In this document: positions 1,879 through 7,200 of the stretch, piece after piece
Layout: each line of letters begins with the position of its first letter
Position numbering within the stretch: the stretch's first letter is position 1
Virus record (IMG/VR): IMGVR_UViG_2671181019_000005
Direction: 5' to 3' (one strand)
From: a virus
Lineage: Duplodnaviria; Heunggongvirae; Uroviricota; Caudoviricetes
Length of the DNA stretch: 7,438 nucleotides
Notes under the pieces: generated by a model
What the model saw: only the letters and a program-made list of their open reading frames with translations
Database searches by the model: none
What the model was told of the DNA's origin: nothing
Translations under genes and position numbers: made by a program

Positions 1879-2204
1879 AAACCTTCCGCTGGAAAGTGAA
1901 ACCCGGTATGGATGTGGCTTCGGCCCCTTCCGTAAGAAAGGTGCGCTTTGGTGATGGCTATTCCCAGCGAGCGCCTGCCGGGCTGAACACTGACCTGAAA
2001 ACGTACAGCGTGACGCTTTCTGTTCCCCGTTGGGAGGCCGCGGCGCTGGAGTCGTTTCTGGCTGAGCACGGGGGCTGGAAGGCCTTTCTGTGGACGCCGC
2101 CTTATGGCTACCGGCAGATAAAGGTGACCTGCGCAAAATGGTCGTCGCGGGTCAGTATGCTGCGTGTTGAGTTCAGCGCAGAGTTTGAACAGGTGGTGAA
2201 CTGA
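1875..2204 (+). CDS. M: Minor tail protein M (lambda gpM-like), 109 aa
   Basis: ORF 1875..2204 with a good SD. The translation MKTFRWKVKPGMDVAS...WTPPYGYRQIKVTCAKWSSRVSMLRVEFSAEFEQVVN is near-identical, from memory, to lambda gpM, and has the same length (109 aa). Start overlaps the H stop (ATGA); stop overlaps the L start (TGATG). Confidence 0.95.
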   Translation: MKTFRWKVKPGMDVASAPSVRKVRFGDGYSQRAPAGLNTDLKTYSVTLSVPRWEAAALESFLAEHGGWKAFLWTPPYGYRQIKVTCAKWSSRVSMLRVEFSAEFEQVVN

Positions 2205-2902
2205 TGCAGGATATCCGGCAGGAAACACTGAATGAATGCACCCGTACGGAGCAGTCGGCCAGCGTGGTGCTCTGGGAAATCGACCTGACAGAGGTCGGTG
2301 GAGAACGTTATTTTTTCTGTAATGAGCAGAACGAAAAAGGTGAGCCGGTCACCTGGCAGGGGCGGCAGTATCAGCCGTATCCCATTCAGGGGAGTGGTTT
2401 TGAACTGAATGGCAAAGGCACCAGTACGCGCCCCACGCTGACGGTTTCTAACCTGTACGGTATGGTCACCGGGATGGCGGAAGATCTGCAGAGTCTGGTC
2501 GGCGGAACGGTGGTCCGGCGTAAGGTTTACGCCCGTTTTCTGGATGCGGTGAACTTCGTCAACGGAAACAGTGACGCCGATCCGGAGCAGGAGGTGATCA
2601 GCAGCTGGCGCATTGAGCAGTGCAGCGAACTGAGCGCGGTGAGTGCCTCTTTTGTACTGTCCACGCCGACGGAAACGGACGGTGCTGTTTTTCCTGGACG
2701 TATCATGCTGGCCAACACCTGCACCTGGACCTATCGCGGTGATGAGTGCGGTTATCACGGTCCGGCAGTCGCGGATGAATATGATCAGCCGACGTCCGAT
2801 ATCACGAAGGATAAATGCAGCAAATGCCTGAGTGGCTGTAAGTTTCGCAATAACGTCGGCAACTTTGGCGGCTTCCTTTCCATTAACAAACTTTCGCAGT
2901 AA
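2204..2902 (+). CDS. L: Minor tail protein L (lambda gpL-like), 232 aa
   Basis: ORF 2204..2902. The translation MQDIRQETLNECTRTEQSASVVLWEIDLTEVGGERYFFCNEQ...CSKCLSGCKFRNNVGNFGGFLSINKLSQ matches lambda gpL from memory (same length, C-terminal Cys cluster). Start codon overlaps the M stop. Confidence 0.95.
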   Translation: MQDIRQETLNECTRTEQSASVVLWEIDLTEVGGERYFFCNEQNEKGEPVTWQGRQYQPYPIQGSGFELNGKGTSTRPTLTVSNLYGMVTGMAEDLQSLVGGTVVRRKVYARFLDAVNFVNGNSDADPEQEVISSWRIEQCSELSAVSASFVLSTPTETDGAVFPGRIMLANTCTWTYRGDECGYHGPAVADEYDQPTSDITKDKCSKCLSGCKFRNNVGNFGGFLSINKLSQ

Positions 2903-2907
2903 ATCCC

Positions 2908-3651
2908 ATGACACAGACAGAATCAGCGATTCTGGCGCACGCCCGGCGATGTGCGCCAGCGGAGTCGTGCGGCTTCGTGGTAAGCACGCCGGAGGGGGAA
3001 AGATATTTTCCCTGCGTGAATATCTCCGGTGAGCCGGAGGCGTATTTCCGGATGTCGCCGGAGGACTGGCTGCGGGCAGAGATGCAGGGTGAGATTGTGG
3101 CGCTGGTCCACAGCCACCCCGGTGGTCTGCCCTGGCTGAGTGAGACCGACCGGCGGCTGCAGGTGCAGAGTAATTTGCCGTGGTGGCTGGTTTGCCGGGG
3201 GGCGATTCACAAGTTCCGCTGTGTGCCACATCTTTCCGGGCGGCGCTTTGAGCACGGGGTGACGGACTGTTACACGCTGTTCCGGGATGCTTACCATCTG
3301 GCGGGGATTGAGATGCCGGATTTTCATCGCGGGGATGACTGGTGGCGTCACGGTCAGAATCTCTATCTGGATAATCTGGAGGCCACAGGGCTGTATCAGG
3401 TGCCGTTGTCAGCGGCGCAGCCGGGCGATGTGCTGCTGTGTTGTTTTGGTTCATCGGTGCCGAATCATGCCGCCATTTACTGTGGTGACAGCGAGCTGCT
3501 GCACCATATTCCTGAACAACTGAGCAAACGAGAGAGGTACACCGACAAATGGCAGCGACGCACACACTCCCTCTGGCGTCACCGGGAATGGCACGCATCT
3601 GCCTTTACGGGGATTTACAACGATTTGGCCGCCGCATCGACCTTCGAGTGA
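2908..3651 (+). CDS. K: Tail assembly protein K (lambda gpK-like) with JAMM/MPN metalloprotease and NlpC/P60 cysteine peptidase motifs; 247 aa from the first ATG, alternative start at 3052 (199 aa)
   Basis: ORF 2908..3651 begins 5 nt after the L stop. It contains the JAMM signature HxHx7Sx2D as HSHPGGLPWLSETD (about 3109-3150), and an NlpC/P60-like Cys (DCYTLF, Cys codon 3268-3270) with downstream His residues (NHAAIY, LLHHIP). The protein is near-identical to lambda gpK from memory. The lambda annotation starts at the internal Met corresponding to 3052, which here has a GGAGG (3036-3040) 11 nt upstream, whereas 2908 has no obvious SD. Confidence 0.88.
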   Translation: MTQTESAILAHARRCAPAESCGFVVSTPEGERYFPCVNISGEPEAYFRMSPEDWLRAEMQGEIVALVHSHPGGLPWLSETDRRLQVQSNLPWWLVCRGAIHKFRCVPHLSGRRFEHGVTDCYTLFRDAYHLAGIEMPDFHRGDDWWRHGQNLYLDNLEATGLYQVPLSAAQPGDVLLCCFGSSVPNHAAIYCGDSELLHHIPEQLSKRERYTDKWQRRTHSLWRHREWHASAFTGIYNDLAAASTFE

Positions 3652-4196
3652 AAACGGGGTCCGAAGCCATCCGGGCGCTGGCCATGCAGATCCCGGCGTT
3701 TCGTCAGAAACTGAGCGACGGCTGGTACCAGGTACGGATTGCCGGGCGGGATGCAGGAGAAACCGAATTATCATCCCGTCTTAATGAGCCGCTGAAAAAT
3801 GGTGCCGTGATCCACATCGTTCCGCGTCTTGCGGGAGCAAAAAGTGGCGGTGTATTTCAGGCGGTGCTGGGTGCGGCGCTGATTGCAGTGGCGTGGTGGA
3901 ACCCTGCAGGCTGGCTGGGAGCTGCGGCTTTATCGGGCATGTATGCTGCGGGGGCCAGTATGATCCTTGGCGGTGTGGCGCAGATGCTGGCACCGAAAGC
4001 CAGTACCGCAACAACGACCAGCACGGATAACGGTAAGCAGAACACGTATTTCTCGTCACTGGATAACATGGTTGCCCAGGGCAATGTTCTGCCTGTTCTG
4101 TACGGTGAAATGCGCGTGGGGTCACGTGTGGTTTCTCAGGAGATCAGCACGGCAGACGAAGGGGACGGTGGTCAGGTTGTGGTGATTGGTCGCTGA
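3549..4196 (+). CDS. I: Tail assembly protein I (lambda gpI-like), 215 aa; N-terminal ubiquitin-like domain, central Gly/Ala-rich hydrophobic segment, conserved C-terminus
   Basis: ORF 3549..4196 overlaps the 3' end of K by 103 nt in the -1 frame relative to K. The N-terminus MAATHTLPLASPGMARICLYGDLQRFGRRIDLRVKTG... and the C-terminus ...DNGKQNTYFSSLDNMVAQGNVLPVLYGEMRVGSRVVSQEISTADEGDGGQVVVIGR match lambda gpI from memory. The middle (about aa 68-155) appears different from lambda and a few residues shorter. Confidence 0.9.
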   Translation: MAATHTLPLASPGMARICLYGDLQRFGRRIDLRVKTGSEAIRALAMQIPAFRQKLSDGWYQVRIAGRDAGETELSSRLNEPLKNGAVIHIVPRLAGAKSGGVFQAVLGAALIAVAWWNPAGWLGAAALSGMYAAGASMILGGVAQMLAPKASTATTTSTDNGKQNTYFSSLDNMVAQGNVLPVLYGEMRVGSRVVSQEISTADEGDGGQVVVIGR

Positions 4197-4213
4197 GGCA
4201 AAATGTTTTATGT

Positions 4214-4235
4214 GAAACCGCCTCCGGGCGGTTTT
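4214..4235 (+). promoter_or_regulatory. GC-rich hairpin in the I-J intergenic spacer (8-bp stem AAACCGCC / GGCGGTTT, 4-nt loop TCCG) followed by a T-rich tract; terminator-like or attenuator/RNA-stability element
   Basis: Direct base pairing: 4215-4222 aaaccgcc pairs with 4227-4234 ggcggttt, with loop 4223-4226 tccg. It is followed by ttttgtcgttt. It lies between the I stop (4196) and the J start (4257). Confidence 0.4.
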
Positions 4236-4244
4236 GTCGTTTAT

Positions 4245-4256
4245 GGAGCGTGAGGA
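4245..4256 (+). promoter_or_regulatory. Ribosome-binding region for J (GGAG at 4245-4248, GAGGA at 4252-4256)
   Basis: Purine-rich SD-like motifs immediately upstream of the J ATG at 4257; GGAG has an 8-nt spacer. Confidence 0.45.
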
Positions 4257-7200
4257 ATGGGTAAAGGCAGCAGTAAGGGGCATACCCCGCGCGAAGCGAA
4301 GGACAACCTGAAGTCCACGCAGTTGCTGAGTGTGATCGATGCCATCAGCGAAGGGCCGGTTGAAGGTCCGGTGGATGGATTAAAAAGCGTGCTGCTGAAC
4401 AGTACGCCGGTGCTGGACACTGAGGGGAATACCAATATCTCCGGCGTCACGGTGGTGTTCCGGGCCGGTGAGCAGGAGCAGACACCGCCGGAGGGATTTG
4501 AATCCTCCGGCTCCGAGACGGTGCTGGGTACGGAAGTGAAGTACGACACGCCGATTACCCGGACCATCACGTCTGCAAACATCGACCGTCTGCGCTTTAC
4601 CTTCGGTGTGCAGGCACTGGTGGAAACCACCTCAAAGGGGGACCGGAATCCGTCGGAAGTCCGCCTGCTGGTTCAGATACAGCGTAACGGTGGCTGGGTG
4701 ACGGAAAAAGACATCACCATTAAAGGCAAAACCACCTCACAGTATCTGGCCTCGGTGGTGGTGGGTAACCTGCCGCCGCGCCCGTTCAATATCCGGATGC
4801 GCAGGATGACGCCGGACAGCACCACAGACCAGCTGCAGAACAAAACGCTCTGGTCGTCATACACCGAAATCATCGATGTGAAACAGTGCTACCCGAACAC
4901 GGCACTGGTCGGCGTACAGGTGGATTCGGAGCAGTTCGGCAGCCAGCAGGTGAGCCGTAATTATCATCTGCGCGGGCGTATTCTGCAGGTGCCGTCGAAC
5001 TATAACCCGCAGACGCGGCAATACAGCGGTATCTGGGACGGAACGTTTAAGCCAGCATACAGCAATAACATGGCCTGGTGTCTGTGGGATATGCTGACCC
5101 ATCCACGCTACGGCATGGGGAAACGTCTTGGTGCGGCGGATGTGGATAAATGGGCGCTGTATGTCATCGGCCAGAATTGCGACCAGTCGGTGCCGGATGG
5201 CTTTGGTGGCACGGAGCCGCGTATCACCTGTAATGCGTACCTGACCACGCAGCGCAAGGCGTGGGATGTGCTCAGTGATTTCTGCTCGGCGATGCGCTGT
5301 ATGCCGGTATGGAACGGGCAGACGCTGACGTTCGTGCAGGACCGGCCATCGGATAAGGTGTGGACCTATAACCGCAGTAATGTGGTGATGCCGGATGATG
5401 GCGCACCGTTCCGCTACAGCTTCAGCGCCCTGAAGGACCGCCATAATGCCGTTGAGGTGAACTGGATTGACCCGGATAACGGCTGGGAGACGGCGACAGA
5501 GCTTGTGGAGGATACGCAGGCCATTGTCCGTTACGGTCGTAACGTCACGAAGATGGATGCCTTTGGCTGTACCAGCCGGGGGCAGGCACACCGCGCCGGG
5601 CTGTGGCTGATTAAAACGGAGCTGCTGGAGACGCAGACCGTGGACTTCAGCGTGGGCGCAGAAGGGCTTCGCCATGTACCGGGCGATGTCATTGAAATCT
5701 GCGATGATGACTATGCCGGTATCAGCACCGGCGGGCGCGTGCTGGCGGTGAACAGCCAGACCCGGACGCTGACGCTCGACCGTGAAATCACGCTGCCATC
5801 TTCCGGCACCACGCTGATAAGCCTGGTTGACGGAAGTGGCAATCCGGTCAGCGTGGAGGTTCAGTCCGTCACTGATGGCGTGAAGGTAAAAGTGAGCCGT
5901 GTTCCTGACGGCGTTGCCGGATACAGTGTATGGGGGCTGAAGCTGCCGATGCTGCGCCAGCGCCAGTTCCGCTGCGTGAGTATCCGTGAGAACGACGACG
6001 GCACGTATGCCATCACCGCCGTGCAGCATGTACCGGAAAAAGAGGCCATCGTGGATAACGGGGCGCACTTTGACGGCGACCAGAGCGGCACGGTGAATGG
6101 TGTCACGCCGCCAGCGGTGCAGCACCTGACCGCAGAAGTCACCGCAGACAGTGGGGAATATCAGGTGCTGGCGCGCTGGGACACGCCGAAGGTGGTGAAG
6201 GGGGTGAGCTTTATGCTTCGCCTGACCGTGGCAGCGGATGACGGCAGTGAGCGGCTGGTCAGCACGGCCCGGACGACGGAAACCACATACCGCTTCAGGC
6301 AACTGGCGCTGGGGAACTACAGGCTGACAGTCCGGGCGGTAAATGCGTGGGGGCAGCAGGGCGACCCGGCGTCGGTATCGTTCCGGATTGCCGCACCGGC
6401 AGCACCGTCGAGGATTGAGCTGACGCCGGGCTATTTTCAGATAACCGCCACGCCGCATCTTGCCGTTTATGACCCGACGGTACAGTTTGAGTTCTGGTTC
6501 TCGGAAAAACGGATTGCGGATATCAGGCAGGTTGAAACCACAGCCCGCTATCTTGGTACGGCGCTGTACTGGATAGCCGCCAGTATCAATATTAAGCCGG
6601 GCCATGATTATTATTTTTACGTTCGCAGTGTGAACACAGTCGGCAAATCGGCATTCGTGGAGGCTGTCGGTCGGGCGAGCGATGATGCGGAAGGTTACCT
6701 GGATTTTTTCAAAGGAGAAATCGGGAAAACACATCTGGCCCAGGAGCTGTGGACGCAGATTGATAACGGTCAGCTTGCGCCGGACCTGGTTGAAATCAGG
6801 ACGTCCATTACGAATGTCAGCAATGAAATCACGCAGACCGTCAATAAAAAACTGGAAGACCAGAGTGCGGCAATCCAGCAGATACAGAAAGTTCAGGTTG
6901 ATACAAATAATAACCTGAACAGCATGTGGGCCGTGAAACTGCAGCAGATGAAGGACGGACGCCTTTATATTGCGGGTATCGGAGCCGGTATTGGGAATAC
7001 GCCAGCAGGTATGCAGAGTCAGGTGCTTCTGGCTGCTGACCGGATTGCGATGATTAATCCTGCGAATGGCAACACAAAGCCGATGTTTGTTGGTCAGGGC
7101 GATCAGATATTCATGAACGACGTGTTCCTGAAACGCCTGACAGCTCCGACCATTACCAGCGGCGGTAATCCTCCGGCATTTTCCCTGACACCGGACGGGC

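What the first reader, a model, noticed from the sequence alone, without database searches (positions are those of the whole stretch)
3549..4196. I has a ubiquitin-like N-terminus ending in a di-glycine (AKSGG) just before a hydrophobic Gly/Ala-rich core, adjacent to the JAMM enzyme K
The first ~95 residues of I look like a small beta-grasp domain and end ...VPRLAGAKSGG (GG codons 3846-3851). They are followed by a ~50-residue hydrophobic, Gly/Ala-rich segment (VFQAVLGAALIAVAWWNPAGWLGAAALSGMYAAGASMILGGVAQMLAP) and then a conserved C-terminal domain. The combination of a ubiquitin-like module with a di-Gly next to a JAMM peptidase gene resembles prokaryotic ubiquitin-like processing systems that have been proposed for lambda K/I. 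A specific inference is that K cleaves I after the GG. The central segment also appears to differ from lambda I (215 versus 223 aa), so this region may be a variable linker.
Basis: partly seen in the sequence, partly recalled or inferred. Interest (0 to 1): 0.55.

Follow-up and report, generated by a model that had tools for sequence, protein, structure and literature searches.

The report
Lambda-type tail protein I, ubiquitin-like domain

Summary
ORF 3549-4196 encodes a 215-aa homologue of lambda tail tip assembly protein I. It has an N-terminal beta-grasp domain (AlphaFold2 pLDDT 92-97; best fold matches SAMP1, MoaD, CysO, Urm1, ubiquitin). A charge-free Gly/Ala-rich hydrophobic segment follows (residues 102-149), then the conserved C-terminal plug domain. 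The upstream gene K (2908-3651) has an intact JAMM motif and an NlpC/P60 domain.

Iyer, Burroughs and Aravind predicted in 2006 that K's JAB domain releases I's ubiquitin-like domain. A 2025 conference talk from the Davidson laboratory reports experimental confirmation for lambda.

The specific claim of cleavage after Gly101 is not supported. Across 61 diverse homologues, GG at that position occurs in 25%, whereas P92 is present in 100% and G96-[A/S/G]97 in 97%. Profile alignments place G96-A97 on the terminal Gly-Gly of MoaD, CysO and ubiquitin. The published lambda tail model resolves gpI from residue 101 onward. The likely cut therefore lies next to G96-A97.

The verdict is an already known system, with a refined and still untested prediction of the cleavage site.

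The parts
2908..3651 (+). Gene K, tail tip assembly protein K, 247 aa. JAB/JAMM domain at residues 3-100 (nt 2914-3207) and NlpC/P60 domain at residues 111-224 (nt 3238-3579).
   Evidence: Pfam Prok-JAB E 1.2e-14 and NLPC_P60 E 5.4e-12, both above their cut-offs. The modelled K portion (pLDDT >90) matches PfJAMM1 5lda/5ld9, Rpn11 and CSN5, and MepS/LytE.
3109..3150 (+). JAMM zinc-site motif HSHPGGLPWLSETD (H68-x-H70-x7-S78-x2-D81). The upstream catalytic Glu19 lies at nt 2962-2964.
   Evidence: Read directly from the sequence. E19, H68, H70, S78 and D81 are invariant in K homologues of 36-44% identity.
3268..3270 (+). Cys121 codon, the predicted NlpC/P60 catalytic cysteine. Its partners are H187 and H199/H200.
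   Evidence: D120, C121, H187, H199 and H200 are invariant in the K alignment.
3549..4196 (+). Gene I, tail tip assembly protein I, 215 aa counted from ATG 3549. An alternative start is ATG 3588 (Met14).
   Evidence: PDB 8iyk_I (lambda gpI) E 2.3e-104 over the full length. phrog_32 'tail assembly protein' E 1.6e-83. About 95% nucleotide identity to mEp460-type phages.
3549..3651 (+). 103-nt overlap between K and I, with I in the -1 frame relative to K. The overlap is 64 nt if I starts at Met14.
   Evidence: The same 103-nt overlap is annotated in lambda. Within 3588-3651 the common polymorphisms are synonymous in I and non-synonymous in K.
3588..3824 (+). Ubiquitin-like (ThiS/MoaD/SAMP-type) beta-grasp domain of I, residues 14-92.
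   Evidence: AlphaFold2 pLDDT 92-97, with strands 14-19, 29-33, 60-64, 67-69 and 87-92 and helices 37-47 and 49-56. Foldseek matches SAMP1 at E 3.6e-5 and MoaD at TM 0.74.
3825..3851 (+). Extended tail and linker RLAGAKSGG, residues 93-101. This is the only unstructured stretch between the beta-grasp domain and helix H1, and it is the predicted site of proteolysis.
   Evidence: Coil at 93-99 in the model, with a helix from residue 100.
3834..3839 (+). Gly96-Ala97, the family-conserved equivalent of the ubiquitin/MoaD C-terminal Gly-Gly. This is the predicted scissile position (inference).
   Evidence: G96 is present in 98% and [ASG]97 in 98% of 61 diverse homologues. G96 aligns with MoaD G80/81, Ub G75/76, 3rpf_C 73/74 and 4n6e_B 89/90.
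3846..3851 (+). It is predicted to be the N-cap of hydrophobic helix H1.
   Evidence: GG occurs in this register in only 25% of diverse homologues.
3852..3995 (+). Hydrophobic Gly/Ala-rich segment, residues 102-149, forming two predicted helices (H1 and H2 of lambda gpI). Its length varies among homologues.
   Evidence: no charged residues, 44% G+A, variable length. (helices). (all indels relative to lambda fall here). PMC11101478 describes H1/H2 as predicted transmembrane helices.
3996..4193 (+). C-terminal plug domain of I, residues 150-215. It corresponds to the part of lambda gpI that is resolved inside the tail-tip lumen.
   Evidence: 60/66 identical to lambda. PDB 9e7m chains of 90 residues align to query residues 131-214. 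Lambda gpI 134/135-223 is modelled as a trimeric plug under gpH.

Best explanation
The window is the H-M-L-K-I-J tail-tip block of an mEp460/lambda-type siphophage. Protein I is made as a three-part precursor. Residues about 14-92 form a ThiS/MoaD/SAMP-like beta-grasp (ubiquitin-like) domain. A short extended tail follows (93-99). Then come two hydrophobic Gly/Ala-rich helices (100-147) and a C-terminal plug domain (150-215). In lambda that plug sits as a trimer in the tail-tip lumen under the C-terminus of the tape measure.

Protein K, encoded immediately upstream and overlapping I, carries a minimal JAMM/MPN+ zinc metalloprotease domain of the desampylase/PfJAMM1 type and an NlpC/P60 cysteine peptidase domain. 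The mechanism is as follows. K's JAMM domain recognises the beta-grasp domain of I and cuts the tail that follows it, in the way a deubiquitinase or desampylase does. The ubiquitin-like domain is released and discarded. The hydrophobic helices and the plug remain in the tip. The ubiquitin-like domain would therefore act as a removable assembly handle or checkpoint.

Shown here: the folds, the catalytic motifs, the gene linkage and the conservation pattern. Taken from the literature: that cleavage by gpK occurs in lambda, and only after gpI has joined the tip complex. My inference: the scissile bond is next to the conserved Gly96-Ala97 (most likely A97|K98, the equivalent of Ub Gly76), not after Gly101.
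For: - Identity: lambda gpI E 2.3e-104; Pfam domains for the whole operon; 95% nucleotide identity to mEp460-type phages.
- Fold of I: pLDDT 92-97 for residues 11-90; Foldseek hits to SAMP1, MoaD, CysO, Urm1, SUMO and ubiquitin.
- Fold of K: matches PfJAMM1 (including its complex with SAMP2), Rpn11 and CSN5, and MepS/LytE for the second domain. There is a weak NCBIfam 'desampylase' match. E19, H68, H70, S78 and D81 are invariant.
- Linkage: a JAB+NlpC/P60 ORF lies upstream of the I homologue in 73/73 close loci, 8/8 loci of one distant group and 64/73 loci of another. PHROG families also match as natural JAB-I and I-J fusions.
- Site: P92 100%, G96 98%, [ASG]97 98%, against GG in register at 25%. 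G96 aligns with the penultimate Gly of MoaD, CysO and ubiquitin. Beta-5 ends at residue 92, so G96/A97 lie +4/+5 from it, as Gly75/76 do in ubiquitin.
- Literature: the 2006 prediction (PMC1779556). [quoted passage not shown] Only gpI 134/135-223 or 101-223 is seen in virions or tails, and K is absent from virions. Lambda virion mass spectrometry gives one gpI peptide at 9.87% coverage, which equals only the tryptic peptide 202-223. The F-pyocin homologue PA0640 loses its N-terminal domain on maturation.
Against: - No cleavage was observed for this phage, and nothing here measures it.
- The experimental support for lambda comes from a meeting summary. I found no primary paper.
- The alignments to MoaD, CysO and ubiquitin that place G96-A97 on the terminal Gly-Gly are weak (E 1.4e-4, 0.078 and 0.8-1.3).
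- Ala or Ser at P1 would be unusual for a JAMM enzyme.
- The AlphaFold2 run on a natural K-I fusion gave no usable docking information. pTM was 0.54, the junction had pLDDT <50, and no coordinates are returned.
- In 9 of 73 loci of one distant group, no JAB ORF was found within 3 kb upstream although the G-S motif is kept.
- The F-pyocin authors saw the N-terminal region removed by unknown E. coli proteases when the protein was expressed alone.
Confidence: 0.75

Rival explanations
1. K's JAMM domain cuts exactly after the di-Gly Gly100-Gly101. This would leave a ubiquitin-like fragment ending in ...AKSGG and a C-terminal fragment starting at Val102.
For: GG is the canonical P2-P1 pair for JAMM and deubiquitinating enzymes. 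G101 is present in 61/84 representatives in one alignment. The GG is conserved in lambda and in the close relatives checked. It lies in the same unstructured linker.
Against: GG in this register occurs in only 25% of diverse homologues, and many have no Gly-Gly anywhere after G96-[AS]. The GG lies 8-9 residues after the end of beta-5, compared with 4-5 in ubiquitin and MoaD. It is predicted to cap helix H1. The lambda tail model is said to resolve gpI from residue 101 onward. The number of GG dipeptides in I equals the chance expectation.
Confidence: 0.15
2. The NlpC/P60 cysteine peptidase domain of K, not the JAMM domain, removes the N-terminal domain of I, or both domains cut at separate sites.
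For: C121, H187 and H199/H200 are invariant in distant K homologues, so this domain is probably catalytic. Its substrate is unknown, and K is not in virions, which argues against a role in wall digestion at infection. Iyer et al. note phages whose K has only NlpC/P60.
Against: The Ubl-JAMM pairing has direct structural precedent in the PfJAMM1-SAMP2 complex, the top fold hit. The talk summary describes gpK as having a deubiquitinating domain and reports that gpK makes the cut. NlpC/P60 enzymes typically act on peptidoglycan stem peptides.
Confidence: 0.1
3. I is not cleaved. The ubiquitin-like domain stays attached and is simply disordered or flexible in tails and virions.
For: Absence of cryo-EM density cannot distinguish disorder from removal, and the authors say so for PA0640 and for lambda.
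Against: Lambda virion mass spectrometry found only the C-terminal tryptic peptide, although four good tryptic peptides exist in the ubiquitin-like domain. N-terminal peptides of PA0640 are present in stalled precursors and absent from mature particles. The talk summary reports cleavage.
Confidence: 0.05
4. The ubiquitin-like domain is a true modifier. After release it is conjugated through its C-terminus to another tail protein, or it carries sulfur as ThiS and MoaD do.
For: The domain belongs to the ThiS/MoaD/SAMP clade by fold and has a conserved Gly near its C-terminus.
Against: There is no E1-like (ThiF/MoeB) or E2-like gene in the operon. Every ORF in the window is accounted for as H, M, L, K, I or J. 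The domain ends in G-A/S rather than G-G in most homologues. No ubiquitin-like density is reported on any tail protein.
Confidence: 0.02

Closest known systems
Bacteriophage lambda gpI / gpK (tail tip assembly proteins I and K; Pfam PF06805 Lambda_tail_I; 'TAPI/TAPK' of Iyer, Burroughs and Aravind 2006)
   Same: The gene order H-M-L-K-I-J is the same, and so is the 103-nt K/I overlap. I is identical to lambda gpI in residues 1-37, 72/88 identical over 14-101 and 60/66 identical over the C-terminal domain. The same AGAKSGG tail is present. K is nearly identical over its 199 comparable residues.
   Different: The central hydrophobic segment is 8 residues shorter and only 30/46 identical. The K reading frame is intact here (247 aa), whereas the lambda reference record annotates 199 aa because of a 1-nt gap that re-sequenced lambda does not have.
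Archaeal SAMP / JAMM desampylase pairs (Pyrococcus furiosus JAMM1-SAMP2, PDB 5LDA; Haloferax HvJAMM1)
   Same: The best fold match of I's N-terminal domain is SAMP1. The best fold match of K's first domain is PfJAMM1, including its complex with SAMP2. The JAMM motif is intact. There is a weak NCBIfam 'desampylase' match.
   Different: There is no E1 enzyme and no conjugation cycle. The ubiquitin-like domain is translated as the N-terminus of its 'substrate' and would be removed once. The residue equivalent to the last Gly is Ala or Ser in most family members. K carries an additional NlpC/P60 domain. The NCBIfam score of 30.5 is far below the family cut-off of 130, so K is not a member of that equivalog.
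F-type pyocin tip plug protein PA0640 with gpK homologue PA0639 (PDB 25vf, 9l9p)
   Same: PA0640-type chains match I at E 1.6e-21 and 1.8e-17, and their N-terminal domains match the ubiquitin-like profile and end in IVP-x3-GSK. Only the C-terminal part is seen in particles. The N-terminal domain is present in stalled precursors and absent from mature particles. The K homologue is needed for tip assembly.
   Different: It is a tailocin, not a phage, and is about 30-40% identical. Its tail reads G-S-K-R-A-G, with no di-Gly. The responsible protease is stated to be unknown.
T5 baseplate hub protein pb3 plug domain
   Same: It forms a trimeric plug in the same lumenal position and has a proposed membrane-insertion role.
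   Different: In T5 the plug is an insertion within one large hub protein. There is no ubiquitin-like domain and no K-type protease (from the paper, not tested here).

Membership tests
Lambda tail tip assembly protein I (PF06805 / TAPI) | N-terminal Lambda_tail_I domain above the Pfam gathering score | tested here: met
   PF06805, 84.2 bits against a cut-off of 23.8, residues 14-97.
Lambda tail tip assembly protein I (PF06805 / TAPI) | Full-length similarity to lambda gpI, including the Gly-rich hydrophobic linker and the C-terminal 'TAPI-C' domain | tested here: met
   8iyk_I E 2.3e-104, query residues 1-215 aligned to chain residues 1-223.
Lambda tail tip assembly protein I (PF06805 / TAPI) | Position in the tail operon between a K-type peptidase gene and the central fibre gene J | tested here: met
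   ORF map and Pfam matches for M, L, K, I and J. The same order is annotated in lambda and mEp460.
Lambda tail tip assembly protein I (PF06805 / TAPI) | C-terminal domain forms the trimeric plug in the tail-tip lumen | not testable with these tools
   Inferred from 60/66 identity to the lambda region resolved by cryo-EM. The AlphaFold2 monomer model is of low confidence there (pLDDT about 50).
Ubiquitin-like beta-grasp proteins, ThiS/MoaD/SAMP/Urm1 clade | Beta-grasp fold | tested here: met
   pLDDT 92-97. Foldseek matches SAMP1 at E 3.6e-5, MoaD 1fm0_D at TMt 0.74 and rmsd 2.4, plus CysO and Urm1.
Ubiquitin-like beta-grasp proteins, ThiS/MoaD/SAMP/Urm1 clade | Gly-Gly at the C-terminal end of the fold, 4-5 residues after beta-5 | tested here: not met
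   The equivalent dipeptide is Gly96-Ala97. In the family it is G-[A/S] in 93% of homologues. The actual GG lies 4 residues further on and is not conserved.
Ubiquitin-like beta-grasp proteins, ThiS/MoaD/SAMP/Urm1 clade | Partner E1-like adenylating enzyme (ThiF/MoeB/UbaA) for activation or conjugation | tested here: not met
   None is present in the window. All ORFs are assigned to H, M, L, K, I or J. I is therefore ubiquitin-like in fold, not a member of a conjugation or sulfur-carrier system.
JAMM/MPN+ metalloproteases (K, first domain) | Prok-JAB profile match and the E...HxHx7Sx2D zinc-site motif | tested here: met
   PF14464, 54.6 bits against a cut-off of 25. E19, H68, H70, S78 and D81 are present and invariant in homologues.
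JAMM/MPN+ metalloproteases (K, first domain) | MPN fold | tested here: met
   Foldseek matches 5lda_A and 5ld9_A (PfJAMM1), Rpn11, CSN5 and AF2198. The K portion of the model has pLDDT >90.
JAMM/MPN+ metalloproteases (K, first domain) | Zinc-dependent cleavage after the C-terminal residue of a ubiquitin-like domain | not testable with these tools
   Reported for lambda only in a meeting summary.
NlpC/P60 (C40) peptidases (K, second domain) | Profile match and a conserved Cys-His-His/polar catalytic triad | tested here: met
   PF00877, 46.1 bits against a cut-off of 23. C121, H187 and H199/200 are invariant. Fold matches to MepS, Spr and LytE.

The most novel reading that the evidence does not exclude
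K is a two-protease maturation enzyme with two different substrates. Its JAMM domain releases I's ubiquitin-like domain at the conserved Gly96-Ala/Ser97 position. That would make it a JAMM enzyme that accepts Ala or Ser instead of Gly at P1. Its NlpC/P60 domain has an invariant Cys-His-His triad, has no known substrate, and is absent from virions. It might cut a second tail protein, and the obvious orphan event is the gpH to gpH* processing of the tape measure, whose protease PMC12617516 says is unknown.
Probability: 0.07. Interest if true: 0.6.

Novelty: already known. Interest (0 to 1): 0.2.

Why it matters
The K/I pair is an early predicted example of a ubiquitin-like domain paired with a JAMM protease outside eukaryotes, and it sits at a checkpoint in the assembly of a classic phage tail. 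For this window the finding adds nothing new in kind: it is a close relative of lambda, and the idea dates from 2006. The useful addition is practical. Anyone testing the cleavage should look for a product boundary at Gly96-Ala97 (nt 3834-3839) rather than at the di-Gly. They should use the 247-aa form of K and should not trust database starts for I that remove the first strand of the ubiquitin-like domain.

Tried and rejected
- I tried to dock the ubiquitin-like tail into the JAMM site by running AlphaFold2 on a database K-I fusion (P0316, 428 aa) with a block alignment of K and I homologues. The first MAFFT alignment misplaced the K homologues and had to be repaired by adding more fusion sequences. 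Both K domains folded well, but pTM was 0.54, the junction had pLDDT <50, and the tool returns no coordinates. No conclusion about the scissile bond was possible.
- The search for related loci with the 65-sequence alignment failed because no stretch was conserved enough. With a smaller alignment it returned only close relatives. With P0261 it found nothing.
- NCBIfam has no model that matches I.
- I tested whether I codons 1-13 are under coding constraint by looking at polymorphism in 44 haplotypes. The 34 nt from 3549 to 3582 are invariant, but the expected number of changes is only about 2, so the test is inconclusive.
- I looked for a primary paper on gpK cleavage of gpI and found only the meeting summary. 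The Structure 2024 lambda tail paper is not in the library, so the statement 'resolved from residue 101' is second-hand.
- I rejected the K-I fusion ORFs in the databases as evidence for programmed frameshifting. They are mostly clusters of one or two sequences with different junctions, and some are chimeras with terminase.
Full report
**What the window is.** The 7438-base window carries, on the + strand:
- the 3' part of a tape-measure gene (19-1878)
- M (1875-2204)
- L (2204-2902)
- K (2908-3651)
- I (3549-4196)
- the first 1060 codons of J (from 4257)

Each has the expected Pfam family. The K-I stretch is about 95% identical in DNA to mEp460-type lambdoid phages of E. coli, and 268 phage records match it. 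Protein I matches lambda 'tail tip assembly protein I' in the PDB (8iyk_I) at E 2.3e-104 over its full length.

**Checking the observation.**
- The ORF is 215 aa, and Gly100-Gly101 are encoded at 3846-3851.
- Residues 14-97 match PF06805.
- I predicted the structure of I using 64 homologues of 30-80% identity. Residues 11-90 have pLDDT 92-97. The order of elements is strand 14-19, strand 29-33, helices 37-47 and 49-56, strands 60-64 and 67-69, a short helix, and strand 87-92. Then come a coil at 93-99 and helices at 100-117 and 119-147.
- Foldseek against the PDB returns SAMP1 (E 3.6e-5), MoaD (TM 0.74, rmsd 2.4 Å), CysO, Urm1, SUMO and ubiquitin.
- Residues 102-149 are 44% Gly+Ala with no charged residue.
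- The 8-residue length difference from lambda lies entirely in this segment, and its length varies widely in the family.

**Gene K.**
- K has Prok-JAB (residues 3-100) and NlpC/P60 (residues 111-224) domains.
- The motif E19...H68-S-H70-x7-S78-x2-D81 is intact. It is invariant in K homologues of 36-44% identity that I extracted from distant loci, as is the NlpC/P60 set C121, H187 and H199/H200.
- A model containing K (from a database K-I fusion) has pLDDT above 90 across both K domains. It matches PfJAMM1 (including its complex with the ubiquitin-like SAMP2), Rpn11 and CSN5 for the first domain, and MepS, Spr and LytE for the second.
- NCBIfam gives a sub-threshold 'desampylase' match.

**Linkage of K and I.**
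- Among loci with at least 2 kb upstream of the I homologue, a single ORF with both JAB and NlpC/P60 similarity is present in 73/73 close relatives. It is also present in 8/8 loci of one distant group (about 44% identity to I) and 64/73 of another (about 38% identity).
- PHROG families exist that match as JAB-I fusions (phrog_35166) and I-J fusions (phrog_31). Iyer et al. noted the same fusions.

**What is already known.**
- Iyer, Burroughs and Aravind (Genome Biol 2006, PMC1779556) identified the ubiquitin-like domain of 'TAPI', its Gly-rich linker and C-terminal domain, and the JAB+NlpC/P60 architecture of 'TAPK'. [quoted passage not shown]
- Cryo-EM structures of lambda show only gpI 134/135-223 (virions) or 101-223 (tails), as a trimeric plug beneath the C-terminus of gpH. 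K is absent from virions.
- A summary of a 2025 talk by A. [quoted passage not shown]
- For the F-pyocin homologue PA0640, N-terminal peptides are present in stalled precursors and absent from mature particles. The gpK homologue is required for tip assembly, and the protease was left unassigned.
- One small extra point: the lambda virion proteome lists gpI with one peptide and 9.87% coverage. The only fully tryptic peptide of that size is the C-terminal 202-223. None of the four good tryptic peptides of the ubiquitin-like domain was seen.

I took 61 family representatives of up to about 56% identity and read the residues that follow the invariant Pro92.
- Gly at +4 (G96) occurs in 98%, and Ala/Ser/Gly at +5 in 98%.
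- Gly-Gly in the window's register (+8, +9) occurs in 25%, and any Gly-Gly between +6 and +12 in 48%.
- A distant group of about 80 loci (found with P0248) mostly reads P-V-I-x-G-S-K-R-A-G-L, with no di-Gly.
- I contains 3 GG dipeptides, against 3.1 expected from its glycine content.
- A profile of the ubiquitin-like domain aligns G96 with the penultimate Gly of MoaD (80 of 81; E 1.4e-4) and of ubiquitin (75 of 76; weak). The same holds for the PDB chains 3rpf_C (73 of 74) and 4n6e_B CysO (89 of 90), both weak hits. All four agree, so A97 is the counterpart of Ub Gly76.
- In the model, beta-5 ends at residue 92. G96/A97 therefore lie +4/+5 from it, as in ubiquitin, whereas G100-G101 cap the first hydrophobic helix.
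- PMC11101478 says the lambda tail model resolves gpI 'from position 101 onward'. If so, residue 101 stays in the tail.

I therefore predict a cut next to G96-A97 (nt 3834-3839), most likely A97|K98. This is an inference. The alignments are weak, and no cleavage product has been mapped in anything I could read.

**Mechanism and rivals.**
- The best explanation (0.75) is a one-shot, deubiquitinase-like removal of an N-terminal ubiquitin-like assembly domain by K's JAMM domain. This leaves the hydrophobic helices and the plug in the tip.
- The rivals are a cut after G101 (0.15), cleavage by the NlpC/P60 domain (0.1), no cleavage (0.05), and a true conjugation or sulfur-carrier role (0.02). No E1-like gene is present.
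- The role of the conserved NlpC/P60 triad remains open. The most novel reading I cannot exclude is that it processes a second tail protein such as gpH, whose protease is unknown. I give this a probability of about 0.07.

**Verdict.** The general interpretation is supported but was published 20 years ago and is reportedly now confirmed by experiment. The specific Gly101 site is not supported. Novelty: already known. Interest: 0.2.

Noticed in passing
window 2908-3060 (K N-terminus); lambda NC_001416 14128-14280 (L001 1129-1280): The lambda reference records (J02459/NC_001416) annotate K as 199 aa starting at the Met equivalent to window Met49. They lack one base that is present here (GGAGGCGTATTTCC here, GGAGGC-TATTTCC in lambda). 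That gap puts the first 48 codons of the JAB domain, including the catalytic Glu, out of frame. Re-sequenced lambda records span 203 rather than 202 bases here, and PV340536.1 annotates K as 744 nt. The 199-aa K is most likely an error in the 1982 sequence.
   Followed up: yes
window 3549-3651: The start of I is annotated in three ways in public records. They are Met1 (215/223 aa, 103-nt overlap with K), Met14 (200-202 aa, common in NCBI annotation) and Val34 (182-190 aa, for example in mEp460_ev081 and lambda PV340536). The Val34 start would delete the first strand of the ubiquitin-like domain. Most of the diverse full-length homologues, and phrog_32, begin at or within a few residues of the Met14 equivalent. 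In one distant group, K's stop overlaps I's start by only 1-4 nt. Which start is used here is unresolved.
   Followed up: partly
window 3588-3651: Within the K/I overlap, eight of the common polymorphisms among 44 haplotypes are synonymous in I and non-synonymous in K. The last 20 or so residues of K therefore appear to evolve freely, while the I frame is constrained.
   Followed up: partly
window 4215-4234 (I-J spacer 4197-4256): The 60-nt spacer between I and J holds a stable hairpin, AAACCGCC-TCCG-GGCGGTTT, followed by TGTCGTTT (-25.2 kcal/mol for the 73-nt stretch, z -2.4). The stem is conserved in lambda and in nearly all close relatives, while the loop varies. The consensus terminator scan did not flag it, and its function is unknown.
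   Followed up: partly
database proteins P0004, P0006, P0007, P0042, P0047, P0287, P0316, P0330; P0020, P0121: Many clusters of one or two sequences are K-I fusions with different junctions inside the overlap. Two are terminase-I chimeras. They look like frameshift errors or decayed prophages rather than programmed frameshifting, although I lies in the -1 frame of K.
   Followed up: partly
loci L089, L094, L096, L126, L127, L137, L138, L144, L148: In 9 of 73 loci of a distant I group, no ORF with JAB or NlpC/P60 similarity and no HxHx7Sx2D motif was found within 3 kb upstream, although I keeps the P-x3-G-S motif. In many other loci of this group, K lies 0.5-1.2 kb upstream of I with another gene in between.
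   Followed up: no
window 3549-3851 (I N-terminal domain): [quoted passage not shown] The confident beta-grasp model and the SAMP/MoaD fold matches give no support for a hydrolase there.
   Followed up: yes
window 2108-3598 (-) and 4857-6734 (-): There are long open reading frames of 496 and 625 aa on the minus strand, antisense to L/K and to J. They lie opposite well-supported genes and are presumably non-coding shadow frames.
   Followed up: no
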